Shown here: positions 30,008-54,902 of the stretch, in pieces | How positions within the stretch are numbered: the first letter of the stretch is position 1 | Layout: every line of letters starts with the position of its first letter | Source: Octopus vulgaris | Lineage: Eukaryota | Reading direction: 5' to 3' | NCBI GenBank assembly: GCA_951406725.2 | Contig: OX597816.1 | Location: forward strand, 69,130,001 to 69,194,000 | DNA length: 64,000 nucleotides | Program-made: the position numbers and the translations under genes | Notes under the pieces: model-generated | Told to the model about the DNA's origin: nothing | The model's input: only the letters and a program-made list of their open reading frames with translations | Database searches by the model: none

Positions 30008-31007
30008 CCATCGAACCACATGGTTCCGGTTTCAGTCCCACAGCGTGGCACAATGGGCAAGTGCCTTCTACTATGGCCTCGGGCCGACCAAAGCCTTGTG
30101 AGTGGATTTCGTCGAGGGAAACTGAAAGAAGCCCGTCGTATGTATGTGTGTTTTTCTGTGTGTTTGTCCCCCCAACATCGCTTGACAACCGATGCTGGTG
30201 TGTTTACGTCCCCGTGACTTAGCGGTTCGGCAAAAGATATCGACAGAAAAAAGTACTTGCCTTTATTTCATGTCCTTTCATTTCTGGTTAGAGGAGATTG
30301 GCACAAACAGTTCTCTATATCATCATTGAATTTTGATATTCTTTATATGCATGCCTCAAGTTGCGCTACTACGACATAAATTTTTATAAGCTTCTTTACT
30401 GCGTATTTGCTTCTGTACAATAGTGTACAGTCTTCGAAACGATACCGGTATGCTTCAGTAGTTTTCTTCTCATCAACAAGATTCTCTGTTCGGCCCTTCT
30501 AAGTAACACCTTAGGCGAATTACCTTTTGCGTTTTGGTTTAGGTTGATTGATACAATGTTGGCGAGATTTACGTCACAGAAACTGCAAAAATCGAAATAT
30601 GCATGAATATTCTTTTATTCTTTTACTGGATTCAATAATTTGACTGCGGTCATGATGGAGCACCACGTTTTCGTCGAGCAAATCGACCCCAGGACTTATT
30701 CTTTATAAGCCTAGTACTTATTCTATTGGTCTCTTTTCGCCGAACCGCTAAGTTACGGGAAGGTAAATACACCAGCATCGGATGCCAAGCGATGTTGGCG
30801 GGGGTGGGGAGAGGAAGACATACATAAATATATATAATACTTATATATTTATATATACTAAATATATAAGTTTTCTTTGTTATTTTGCACATTACTTAAT
30901 CATCGTTATATGTTTTATCTTATATTTAATCTTTCTATAATATGTAATTTTTCTAAATGGTATAATTTAATTTTTCATTATTGAATTGATAAAAGGTGTT
31001 TTTTTTC

Positions 31008-37800: not shown

Positions 37801-38029
37801 TAACAATTGAATTATATGTAGTAAGTAATAATTAAAATCAAACTAAAGTATAATATAATCGTAACATAACAAAAGTAAAAATAGCAATTGGTATAAAATT
37901 GCATCAATGACTTGAACTTGAATAAGTTGTTTCACATGAATGGGAATAAATTAAAAATAAAATTAGTGTGCAGAAATGGAATAGTCCAGATGGATAATAA
38001 AAAATTAAATTAAAGAAAATACTATTGTC

Positions 38030-38380
38030 TATAAAGTATACAATGTAGAGGAAAAAGATTTGAATACCTGGAGGAAAGCAGCATCGAAAAGTGTCTTGGT
38101 GCGACTATGAAAGATATCTAACGAGAGGCGGTAAATTCGCCACAATAGAAGCAAGGTTCGAGTCAAAGGAGCATGCAAGGGAGTACTCGACTCGAACTTG
38201 CAAAGTGGAAATATCTTATTTTTACCTTTATATCTGGGACGTAGGATGTCCCGGATAAAAATTAAAAATGCCACCCCCCAATAGCAGTAGAGGTAGGCTG
38301 GATTGTAGCCACACTTCTATACAAGAGGGAGGACAAGATAAAATTGATCGAAATTGCAAGAGACGGGCTCACAATTCCAG
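38030..38380 (+). pseudogene. ORF1-like fragment homologous to 52326-52664 (probable L1/Tx1)
   Basis: LQSGNILFLPLYLGRRMSRIKIKN..VEVGWIVATLL aligns with LRTDEIVLLPVYHGRRASRVRVED..VDVAWLVAAILL. Confidence 0.6.
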
Positions 38381-51878: not shown

Positions 51879-51920
51879 CACGCACTCACGCGTGACTGTG
51901 TGGTAAGAAGCTTGATTACT

Positions 51921-53382
51921 ATATAGCGTTTGTCAGTTGAATTTTTGGTTTTGCAAGTGACACATGTGTTTTACTTTTTTTTTTGCTGTCTTAGCGGTGC
52001 GACATTTTTCTTTTGTTTTAATGGAGAGGCGTCGGGTGAGGAGTTGCAAAAGTGTGAATTGTTCCTCTTCTGATTTTGTAGACTCTTCTTCTTCAGACAT
52101 TGTGTCGTCTGAGGAAGAAATGGAGGAGTGTTTGAAGAAGATGACGAAGTAAGGGAGACGAAGAATTATGTAGAGTTGACGAAAGAAAGAAGCGAAGACA
52201 TGAGGCTGGAGAACGTGAGCAAGTTCACGGAATGGTTAAAAGGGAGGGGAATGAAGTGAAGGTCTCTCCACAAAGGAGTTTTAAAAGAAACAAGTGAGAA
52301 GACAATAATTTACAGAACGTACACTGTGGCAGCCAGGAAAATTGAGATCATGTCAACGGCTCAAATAGGAAAGGGACTTAAACCAACTCGGCAGGGAAGT
52401 ACCTACCTCGTTAGAGGTAGAAAAGTTAGAACAGGGAAGATGCGGTCTCGGGAGGTAGCTACTGCCAGGCTGAATTCAGCACCACCGCTAAGAACTGATG
52501 AAATAGTTCTTCTACCCGTATACCATGGGAGACGTGCTTCCAGGGTTAGGGTAGAGGATATATCCCCAGAAGTGGATGTAGCCTGGCTGGTAGCAGCCAT
52601 ATTGCTACGCATGGGGGAGAAGGTGGTTGTCCTCCAGGCCCTCAGAACACCTCACAGGAACTAGTAAGAACAGAGCCTCGATACAGTGGTACACGTTGCA
52701 CTGGAAGGTATAGAAACAGGTGGGGAAACGCGAAGAAAGAGAAAAAAAAGGCACACGCTGTAAAGGACAATCCCCATCCCAGACAGCTCCTACCCAAATC
52801 CACTCTACTCCAACCAATCCCTACAGGCACTACTCCTCTCCATGCCCTACCTGACATTAACATAAGCGCAAACACACAGGAGACCCAAATTTCCCCACCG
52901 TCGCCCTTGGAAAAATGTTATAATGTACAGTGGAGACAATGCAGAAGTGTATAACGAAATAGACTCGTGGGACAATGTTAAAAAAGTGGGTGTATCAGGC
53001 ATAAAGGGAATGCCCGAGTACATTCGTTGTGTAGTGGCAGACCCAGCATACATATCAAGATTAAAGGACTTGGAGGAAAACCATGACTATGTGTCCTGGG
53101 TCCAGAAATCAGACACCAACTCAACGACTAAGCAAGTAAGTGTTTATGATATTTTAAAGAGGGTCAATGTAAATCTCATTTAAAGGAATGATAATTAGCT
53201 GTCGCTAATAATTATTATAAAAATGTATTAACAGGTTCCATGAAGTCGCACGGAGGTGGAGCCCATCGGCTTTATTTCATCTTTCATTATATTAATTTAT
53301 TCTTTCTATTCGTTTTGTATTTTGTCCCCACCTTGAGCTGTCCCTCCTACGTACAGCCTCTGTGACCAATTTCACAAAATAA
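51921..53382 (+). mobile_element. Internally deleted L1/Tx1-like element, unit 1 (ORF1 remnant)
   Basis: Starts tagcgtttgtca. Encodes MERRRVRS..SSSSDIVSSEEE and ...LLPVYHGRRASRVRVEDISPEVDVAWL. Ends tgtccctcctacgtacagcctctgtgaccaatttcacaaaataaa. Clade assignment is inference. Confidence 0.6.
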
Positions 53383-53396
53383 AGAAGCTTGCTTCC

Positions 53397-53907
53397 GGTG
53401 TAGCGTTTGTCAATTGTATTGTTGGTTTTGCGGTGATGTTTTCCCTTTTGTTTAATGGAGGGGCGTCGGGTGGGGAGTGGTGAAGGATTGTATTCTTCTT
53501 CTTCGGACTTTCTGTCACCTGAGGAAGAATTGGTGAAATGTCTAGATAGAAGTGGAGACAAAGAGTTACGCAGAGGCGGCGAAGGAAATAAAAAAGAAGA
53601 AGCAAGTAGTGAACAAGCTGCGAGTGACTGGAAATAGGTAAGTGGGACCAAAAGGAAAAGTAAGGGTTCAAACCTGGCGGCTGGATGTCTTTCCTTCAGT
53701 TACACATTGCAAAATTTGCAATGATCATCAAGTTTATATTGAAATTTTTTTTTTTAAAAGAAAAGATGTCATTTTTAACAGCATGACGTATATATTTTAT
53801 CATTCGAAACTGTTAAAATCGTAATAAACAAGTTCTTCACTCTCTATGTCAATCTGTCCTTCGTTGTCCCATCTATGTACGGCTTCCATAGCCAGTTTAT
53901 GAAATAA
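53397..53907 (+). mobile_element. Internally deleted L1/Tx1-like element, unit 2
   Basis: Starts tagcgtttgtca. Encodes MEGRRVGS..SSSSDFLSPEEE. Ends tgtcccatctatgtacggcttccatagccagtttatgaaataaa. Both ends are homologous to unit 1. Confidence 0.6.
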
Positions 53908-54902
53908 AGAAGCATGGTTCCGGGTTCAGTCCCACAGTGTGGCAACTTGGGTGAGTGTCTTTTGCTATAGCCTCGGGCCAACCAAGCCTTGTGAATGGAT
54001 TTGGTTGACGGAAACTAAAAGAAGCCCGTCGTATATATATATATATATATATATACATTTATGGGTGTCTGTCGGTCGGTACTTGTCCACCCCTCCCTAT
54101 CCCTTGACAATCAATGCTGATGTGTTTAAGCTTCGCCGTTCGGCAAAAAAGAGACCAATAGAATAAGTACTAGGATTACAAAGAATAAGTCCTGTGGTCG
54201 ATTCGTTTGACTAGGCGGTGATCCAGCATGGTCGCAGTCAAATGACTGAAACTAGTAAAAGAGCATATATATATACACAAAATATATAATTATATAATTG
54301 TAATGAGGACACTAATGAGTAGCGACACATACTAGAAACAGACGTCGAATTGTTCTAAGAACTACATTATTTACCATATTGGCATGGGCTGAAAGTGAGG
54401 GAAGTGAATAGAAAAGATTTTTAATAAGGAATTAAACATAGATCGATTTCTCGTTCAGGTATGTAAGTCCCTTTACTGTCATCAGTATGATACAAGTCAG
54501 TGTGTATAAATATAAACATTTATACATACCCATACGAATATATTAAGCGTCCACAAATGCATATACAAGTGTTATACAAATGTATACAAGCAAAATCTAA
54601 TTCGTTCACGTCAGCCACATGCTTATACGATCTAAAAATAATACCGGAGTGAATATATTTATCAAAGTGTTTTATATGTTTATTTATATGTAATTAAGGA
54701 TAAAATCTTAATAAGTTTTATCAAGTAGCCAGCATGTAATAAATCCATAGATATATCGAACTAGAATATCTGTTCTATACGCCTATTTGTTGCAGGTTAG
54801 CTTTCTGGGAAAGATTCTTACATGAAGCCAGGGGGTAGCAAACCCTCGGACTCGTGTAGGCAGCAGATTGGCATAAAAACAGAATACATATACTATGTAT
54901 GT

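What the first reader, a model, noticed from the sequence alone, without database searches (positions are those of the whole stretch)
51886..54263. Two LINE-derived units inserted in tandem at the same site of a tRNA-derived SINE head
Seen: SINE head...aagaagcttgattac | unit 1 | aagaagcttgcttcc | unit 2 | aagaagc...SINE body. The units are diverged but share 5' ends (tagcgtttgtca, ME.RRV.S...SSSSD..S.EEE) and 3' ends (..tgtccc..cta.gtac.gc.tc....cca.tt...aaataaa), separated by a ~15 bp target repeat. Neither has a recognisable RT. Known: tandem insertion with target repeats is typical of sequence-specific non-LTR elements, and the Tx1 group includes families targeting small-RNA genes and other transposons. 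Inference: non-autonomous Tx1-like elements that target SINE heads.
Basis: partly seen in the sequence, partly recalled or inferred. Interest (0 to 1): 0.75.

Follow-up and report, generated by a model that had tools for sequence, protein, structure and literature searches.

The report
LINEs that track a SINE's head
In this animal genome (probably an octopus) a group of LINE jumping genes and their shorter passengers insert at one exact base in the head of the commonest short repeat, old families in old versions of that site and young families in young versions, likely helped by bits of the landing site carried on their own RNA; the window holds two decayed pieces of this stacked together.

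Summary
In 26 of 29 other copies of each unit's 3' end, the 15-mer follows (chance 67 of 5000). At least 1,418 exact junctions exist (318 + 1,100; reversed controls 0). One correction: the two units are not siblings. Unit 1 is a dead copy of family A, a 1.7-kb ORF1-only (HAL1-like) element whose ORF1 was under purifying selection. Unit 2 is a chimera of an A 5' end and the 3' end of autonomous family B (endonuclease, RT, zinc finger). An intact young relative (Y, 99% identical copies) exists. The SINE's target 15-mer changed through three age classes (13%, 6%, 3% diverged), and the LINE families follow it. The '15-bp duplication' is partly element-borne: all 11 full-length Y insertions in middle-age hosts carry the young variant at the 5' junction. 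Tx1 membership is likely but untested by tree. This scan already noted the system on other DNA of this genome (seven notes). My ten paper searches found Tx1 families that target other transposons, none that target a SINE; Repbase was not searchable.

The parts
51886..51904 (+). Remnant of the SINE head: 5' half with the A-box-like motif, ending at the insertion point
   Evidence: tRNA likeness of natural heads
51905..51919 (+). First copy of the target 15-mer, old (A-TCC) class, decayed
   Evidence: D10
51920..53381 (+). Unit 1: decayed copy of family A, an ORF1-only non-autonomous LINE-type element (intact size about 1.70-1.78 kb)
52021..52714 (+). Broken ORF1 of unit 1. 52287-52646 matches ORF1 of intact LINEs (38-41%, E 2e-21 and 2e-24). 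A 256-nt deletion after 52714 removed the CCHC knuckle
   Evidence: fold of a sister copy
53337..53381 (+). Short 3' tail shared by all families of the group; no poly(A); AATAAA is completed by the first target bases
53382..53396 (+). Second copy of the target 15-mer, exact old class
53397..53588 (+). Unit 2, left part: 5' end of a second family A copy
53589..53606 (+). A/B joint, with GAAGC shared by both sides and about 10 extra A-rich bases
53599..53906 (+). Unit 2, right part: 3' end of autonomous family B (last 13 ORF2 codons and stop at 53600-53641, then 3' UTR with a decayed antisense-of-target motif at about 53826-53838)
53907..53913 (+). Third target copy, cut short by a 15-nt deletion
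53914..54263 (+). Rest of the host SINE: B-box-like motif, body, (TA)n, tail

Best explanation
The locus is an old SINE whose head holds, at one fixed base, a decayed ORF1-only passenger (family A) followed by a chimera of a second A copy and the 3' end of an autonomous LINE (family B), likely built by successive target-primed insertions and a later deletion. Shown: the group inserts at this base genome-wide; it includes intact autonomous elements and at least two long-lived ORF1-only lineages; insertions stack head to tail; old families sit in old target variants and young ones in young variants; in the young family the distal part of the 5' 'duplication' follows the element, not the host. 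Inferred: the APE endonuclease nicks the bottom strand at the start of the 15-mer. The RNA would read through the AATAAA that overlaps the junction and carry target bases that pair with the primer, which would explain the missing poly(A). The RNA 5' end would carry at least 5-7 target bases that anneal upstream and prime the second strand. Each insertion rebuilds the site, so arrays grow, and it separates the A-box-like from the B-box-like motif, which would silence that SINE copy. My odds: targeting 0.97; anatomy of the two units 0.9; RNA-borne 5' target bases 0.8; 3' read-through pairing 0.6; SINE change driven by escape 0.15.
For: Flanks: 26/29 A 3' ends, 26/29 B 3' ends and 25/29 A 5' ends carry the target, against 67/5000 random windows. 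Exact junctions number 318 and 1,100 with reversed controls 0; 29 of 30 and 30 of 30 sampled are element ends. 5'-truncated inserts of 52 to 1,122 nt still sit in SINE heads. Y copies are 99.2% alike while their hosts are 88-93% alike. B has EN, RT and zinc-finger remnants 60-84% identical to Y ORF2 in the frame-intact blocks. Y ORF2 hits RVT_1, Exo_endo_phos and zf-RVT, and its best PDB hit is human L1 ORF2p, E 1e-66. Family A has 0/16 both-ended copies with an ORF2 hit; shared ORF1 changes by codon position are 53/48/141 (p 2e-15) while singletons are 223/201/178 (p 0.08). SINE classes are 13.1%, 6.4% and 3.1% from their class majority (n 16, 37, 19). Y-type 3' ends fall 58 AAC, 18 TAC, 1 TCC of 77, against 38/38/24 in the first 100 empty heads (p 9e-7) and 19 AAC of 72 heads not picked by pattern (p 2e-9). 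Discordance: 11/11 full-length Y insertions in TAC hosts end in CTAAC at the 5' junction, 30/30 sampled Y 5' ends do, and the reverse case is 0 of 36 both-ended copies. Irregular 5' joints are 8/11 in mismatched hosts against 5/22 in matched hosts (p 0.009).
Against: No RNA end was observed, so both RNA steps are inferred. Family A lacks the antisense-of-target 3' motif (0/27, against B 22/25) yet targets the same base, so that motif is not needed in cis. Three of 11 truncated copies still show the full 15-bp repeat (L147, L265, L276), so the top-strand cut is not always at 9-10 bp. Seven of 58 A flanks and 3 of 29 B flanks lack the target. One Y copy has position 4 discordant in a way the model does not explain (L178). 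Only about 2% of exact heads are filled (1,418 against 63,830; patterns of unequal length), so pressure on the SINE looks weak; the excess of variable SINE sites in the target (3 of 8-9 sites in 15 of 170 nt, p 0.03-0.04) is only suggestive. A-like elements with ORF2 more than 1.5 kb downstream, or among the 120 ORF1 hits not fetched, are not excluded (one search covered 58 loci).
Confidence: 0.8

Rival explanations
1. Targeting is by the endonuclease alone. The target-like 5' bases are a fixed element terminus with no role, and the succession of classes only reflects which heads were intact and accessible.
For: A sister family with 67% identical ORF2 inserts in (TC)n, so protein change can redirect the group. 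Family A lacks the antisense motif. PMC4494074 (passage) states that target choice is mainly set by the endonuclease.
Against: 5' termini match the SINE class of each family's era. 5' joints are more often irregular in mismatched hosts. Y prefers AAC over more numerous TAC heads that differ by one base.
Confidence: 0.2
2. SINE head, insert and SINE body move together as one composite retroposon, so the constant flanks are part of the element.
For: Nearly all copies have SINE flanks, and 5' junction bases are partly element-borne.
Against: Truncated inserts of many lengths sit in SINE heads. Y is 99% uniform inside hosts of two subfamilies that are 88-93% alike. Arrays mix families.
Confidence: 0.02
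3. The two units are an old local duplication of one insertion.
For: Shared 5' ends and tail.
Against: The 3' 310 nt of unit 2 match family B at 75-86% and not unit 1. The A 5' part of unit 2 is as close to distant copies (up to 85%) as to unit 1 (72-84%).
Confidence: 0.02
4. Sub-question: unit 2 arose in one event, by template switching from B RNA to A RNA during reverse transcription, or as three insertions (A, A, then a 5'-truncated B) rather than by deletion across an A|B tandem.
For: GAAGC is shared at the joint, and the extra bases resemble an A 3' end plus the first 7 target bases. L077 and L082 show A 5' parts upstream of B 3' ends with other breakpoints.
Against: Intact A|target|B tandems exist (L091-L093, L097) and old copies carry many private deletions. 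The extra bases differ in the second organism's contig.
Confidence: 0.35

Closest known systems
Transposon-targeting Tx1 families: Tx1 in Tx1D (Xenopus); Tx1-Mar with SINEU in Mariner-N4_AMi, Tx1-8_Crp, Tx1-4_AMi, Tx1-9_AMi (crocodilians). PMC4494074: passages and section 15 read
   Same: APE-type LINEs that insert into another repeat; passengers share the site; tandem copies sandwich a duplication.
   Different: There the targets are DNA transposons or LTR elements. Here the target is one base in a tRNA-like SINE head, the passengers encode ORF1, and the families follow three successive target variants.
Kibi and Koshi, (TC)n and (TTC)n targeting Tx1; Keno, U2 targeting (PMC4494074 and PMC4640811, passages)
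   Same: A sister family here with 67% identical ORF2 sits in (TC)n in 6 of 6 copies.
   Different: Relationship to the named families was not tested by tree.
HAL1 (half-L1), ORF1-only non-autonomous L1 derivatives (PMC5753468, passage; the original paper was not held)
   Same: ORF1 only, mobilised in trans (inferred), arisen more than once (clades A and H).
   Different: HAL1 is described from mammalian L1. These have a tandem-RRM plus CCHC ORF1 and are site-specific.
R2 and melanogaster-type R1 with co-transcribed 28S flanks (PMC3774820 abstract; PMC2718515 passages)
   Same: [quoted passage not shown]
   Different: Their target is conserved rDNA, so element-borne and host bases cannot be told apart in place. 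Here SINE subfamily variants mark which strand supplied them.

Membership tests
L1-group non-LTR retrotransposon (families B and Y) | ORF2 with APE endonuclease, RT and C-terminal zinc finger | tested here: met
   for Y; for remnants in B
L1-group non-LTR retrotransposon (families B and Y) | 5'-truncated copies with fixed 3' end and target duplication | tested here: met
L1-group non-LTR retrotransposon (families B and Y) | 3' poly(A) tail, as in mammalian L1 | tested here: not met
   no A-tail at the junctions printed; the length varies by about one A
Tx1 clade | RT groups with named Tx1 elements in a tree | not testable with these tools
   none of the 120 homologs listed or 8 clusters looked up carries a Tx1 name; no Repbase
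Tx1 clade | Type I ORF1 (RRM plus CCHC knuckle), consistent with Tx1 per PMC5203782 | tested here: met
   zf-CCHC over cut-off; model pLDDT 68.9 with two alpha/beta domains; best Foldseek hits are tandem-RRM proteins at E 4e-4 to 1e-3, low TM; VIA-align best Z 8.3 is not family-specific
Tx1 clade | Target specificity, over 20% of flanks of one repeat type (criterion in PMC4494074) | tested here: met
   26/29, 26/29, 25/29
HAL1-like ORF1-only element (family A) | ORF1 present, ORF2 absent, both termini kept | tested here: met
   0/16 both-ended copies with ORF2; none downstream in 58 loci, 1.5 kb window
HAL1-like ORF1-only element (family A) | ORF1 kept under selection while the family spread | tested here: met
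HAL1-like ORF1-only element (family A) | Descent from mammalian L1 (HAL1 proper) | tested here: not met
   ORF1 is RRM-CCHC type and groups with local LINE ORF1s
tRNA-derived SINE (host) | Head with A-box-like and B-box-like motifs and tRNA similarity | tested here: met
   best z 5.6 against shuffles, to a tRNA-Thr(TGT) gene among 27 distinct genes; box consensus recalled; no Rfam tRNA hit
tRNA-derived SINE (host) | Source tRNA and identity with published octopus SINEs (OK, OR1, OR2; OK and OR1 are recalled names) | tested here: inconclusive
   several tRNAs score alike; no reference sequences; only the citation was seen
R1/R2-type co-transcribed target flanks | RNA ends extend into target sequence | not testable with these tools
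   only contigs were offered; indirect support

The most novel reading that the evidence does not exclude
A LINE lineage and its ORF1-only passengers have chased one SINE through three subfamily turnovers by updating target bases carried on their own RNA (5' end, 3' read-through, antisense motif in the 3' UTR). They cut each hit SINE's promoter in two and push the SINE master to change the site: RNA-assisted target tracking in a transposon-versus-transposon arms race.
Probability: 0.2. Interest if true: 0.85.

Novelty: new variant of a known kind. Interest (0 to 1): 0.62.

Why it matters
How a site-specific LINE keeps or changes its target is hard to study when the target is conserved rDNA or snRNA. 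Here the target itself evolved in three dated steps, tens of thousands of empty sites are available as controls, and an intact young family exists. One-base differences between SINE subfamilies show which junction bases come from the element, so the share of RNA pairing and endonuclease in targeting can be tested directly. The finding also means that octopus repeat annotation should treat these nests as targeted insertions and ORF1-only families, not as fragments. The window locus itself is a dead, fixed relic.

Tried and rejected
Pfam on the window peptides gave nothing over cut-off. A homolog search with a B fragment against longer proteins found none, and the A ORF1 found one unnamed relative. 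ARAGORN found no tRNA in the window, and Rfam did not call the SINE head a tRNA. No RNA holder was listed for the Y element and only contigs were available, so nothing is said on expression. Self-nesting of the SINE, a lead from earlier notes: 1 of 249 SINE tails in my loci is followed by the target; my genome-wide pattern (3 matches) could not match the direct joint, so this stays untested. A real tRNA as target: 0 of 30 loci, a small sample of isoacceptors. Paper searches for a SINE-targeting LINE found none; some searches were for HAL1, R2 junctions, ORF1 type and Tx1L. Two papers were not held. The O. vulgaris repeat paper lists L1-Tx1 families (passages and one supplement row) and has no occurrence of 'target' or 'nested' in its main text; its library files were not seen and, like Repbase, may already hold these families. 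Dropped rows: the window's own copy from each flank tally; two short B ORF1 pieces from the tree (19 of 21 rows); L269 is a false pair within the 36; the single A-TCC row (L268) is not family Y by BLAST.

Full report
Observation. The genome is 2.8 Gb in 227 contigs, and the closest named ORF2 homolog is from Argonauta hians at 65%, so the animal is probably an octopus (inference). Contigs of run X18 (53131-53627) and of run X19, which has another organism label (53354-53731, 11 differences), cross the inner joint of unit 2. The structure is real and probably old.

Targeting. Searches with each end of the units gave 40-41 scored matches, of which 30 loci each were fetched. Leaving out the window's own copy, the 15-mer follows 26 of 29 unit-1-type 3' ends and 26 of 29 unit-2-type 3' ends and precedes 25 of 29 5' ends; random 21-mers match in 67 of 5000. 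The exact junction AAATA plus old target occurs 318 times and AAATA plus the T-class targets 1,100 times, with reversed controls 0. Of 30 sampled from each, 29 and 30 are element ends, from many different 3' families that share a short tail. Inserts truncated to 52-1,122 nt still lie between SINE head and body, which excludes a composite that moves as one unit.

Unit 1. It belongs to family A. Sixteen copies with both ends are 1.0-2.1 kb, seven of them 1.69-1.78 kb, and none has an ORF2 hit; none of 58 loci shows ORF2 within 1.5 kb downstream. The ORF1 is 33-48% identical to ORF1 of intact LINEs. Changes shared by three or more copies fall 53/48/141 on codon positions 1/2/3, singletons 223/201/178, so the protein was selected while the family spread and decayed afterwards. 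A model of a sister copy shows two alpha/beta domains whose best Foldseek hits are tandem-RRM proteins, followed by a CCHC knuckle. Unit 1 has stops and a 256-nt deletion that removed the knuckle.

Unit 2. Its first 190 nt match A 5' ends and its last 310 nt match family B at 75-86%; none of the 29 A-5' or 29 B-3' loci holds the same joint. B begins with a different 5' end and carries endonuclease, RT and zinc-finger remnants. Positions 53600-53641 are the end of its ORF2. A|target|B tandems occur elsewhere, so a deletion across such a tandem is the simplest origin; template switching or a third, truncated insertion remain open.

Intact relatives. A search with B's RT found young copies with open ORF2 of 1,138-1,150 aa. 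Family Y is 5.44 kb with ORF1 (488 aa, zf-CCHC) and ORF2 (1,140 aa; APE, RT, zf-RVT), copies 99.2% alike, best PDB hit human L1 ORF2p. It sits at the same base of the SINE head. A sister family, 67% identical in ORF2, sits in (TC)n in 6 of 6 copies. A second ORF1-only lineage (H, 2-3 kb) forms arrays, one of seven copies followed by a Y, and is a separate, fully supported clade in the ORF1 tree.

Tracking. The SINE's 15-mer has three main variants whose copies are 13.1%, 6.4% and 3.1% from their class majority (diagnostic body changes). A (74% pairwise) and B (80%) sit in the oldest class. Y-type 3' ends fall 58 in the youngest, 18 in the middle and 1 in the oldest class, that one not being Y. 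Empty exact heads number 63,830, with 38, 38 and 24 of the first 100 in the young, middle and older forms. The bias is significant against that sample (p 9e-7) and against heads not picked by pattern (p 2e-9). Three of 8-9 non-CpG variable sites of the SINE's first 170 nt lie in the 15-mer (p 0.03-0.04); with about 2% of heads filled, this does not show escape.

Junctions. Of the 18 Y-type ends in middle-class hosts, 17 were fetched singly and one lies in an array; 11 have a full-length 5' end, and all 11 end in CTAAC at the 5' junction while the 3' copy and SINE body are middle-class. All 30 sampled of 84 Y 5' ends end so: 18 seamless, 12 with one extra T. Among 36 both-ended copies of all families the reverse pairing never occurs. 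Irregular joints are 8 of 11 in mismatched and 5 of 22 in matched hosts. Truncated copies duplicate 1-10 nt in 8 of 11 cases and 15 nt in 3. I infer that the RNA begins inside the target and that these bases anneal upstream, as proposed for R2 and R1 (PMC3774820 abstract; PMC2718515 passages). No poly(A) is seen, and AATAAA is completed by the target, so 3' read-through pairing is also likely; neither RNA end was observed. Following a lead from note e1-8667107, I found that a 3' UTR motif antisense to the target changes with class: AGCTAC in 36 of 40 T-class and 1 of 24 A-class junctions, AGCTTC in 0 of 40 and 13 of 24, background 0 of 68. These copies are related, so the counts are not independent events. 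B has the motif (22 of 25) and A lacks it (0 of 27).

Known systems. Tx1 families that target DNA transposons, LTR elements, microsatellites and snRNA genes are described (PMC4494074, passages and section 15), as are ORF1-only HAL1 elements (PMC5753468, passage). Six searches aimed at a SINE target found none. Tx1 membership could not be tested by tree. Seven earlier notes of this scan describe the same system at other places of this genome; a word search of the notes for the junction discordance returned nothing, but only short summaries are visible.

Verdict. The feature is real. It is a new variant of a known kind: site-specific L1/Tx1-group LINEs with ORF1-only passengers that target a SINE head and follow its change. 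The window locus is a dead relic with one A copy and one A/B chimera. Interest 0.62.

Noticed in passing
window 38021-38345 (+): Isolated, broken ORF1 fragment of the same LINE group (E 4e-7 to the (TC)n family's ORF1), with no SINE head beside it.
   Followed up: partly
window 26555 (-): SINE head remnant that stops about 8 nt into the target and runs into unrelated sequence; possibly a truncated insertion or a deletion.
   Followed up: no
window 30014-30141 (+): Headless SINE that begins just after the target 15-mer, with no element tail upstream.
   Followed up: partly
L183-L188: Young intact sister family (ORF2 1,138 aa) inserted in (TC)n microsatellites in 6 of 6 copies; one is in tandem (L188).
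   Followed up: partly
L302-L303 (G000:C1:223694734-223706766) and L301: Arrays of about 2.0-kb ORF1-only elements, seven copies followed by an autonomous Y; mixed-family array in L301.
   Followed up: partly
L189-L190 (G000:C9:2664540-2680867): Three full-length Y copies head to tail; all three 5' joints share the extra-T form while the host is middle-class, so unequal crossing-over may have made the array.
   Followed up: partly
L091-L110: Old B copies often keep both ends but have different large internal deletions; a high deletion rate or a bias of integration is unexplained.
   Followed up: no
L009: One SINE tail runs directly into the target 15-mer (possible self-nesting), 1 of 249 tails.
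   Followed up: partly
L321-L350: Many dispersed tRNA-Lys(TTT)-like copies with small differences among the top tRNA hits; they may be a second tRNA-derived repeat.
   Followed up: no
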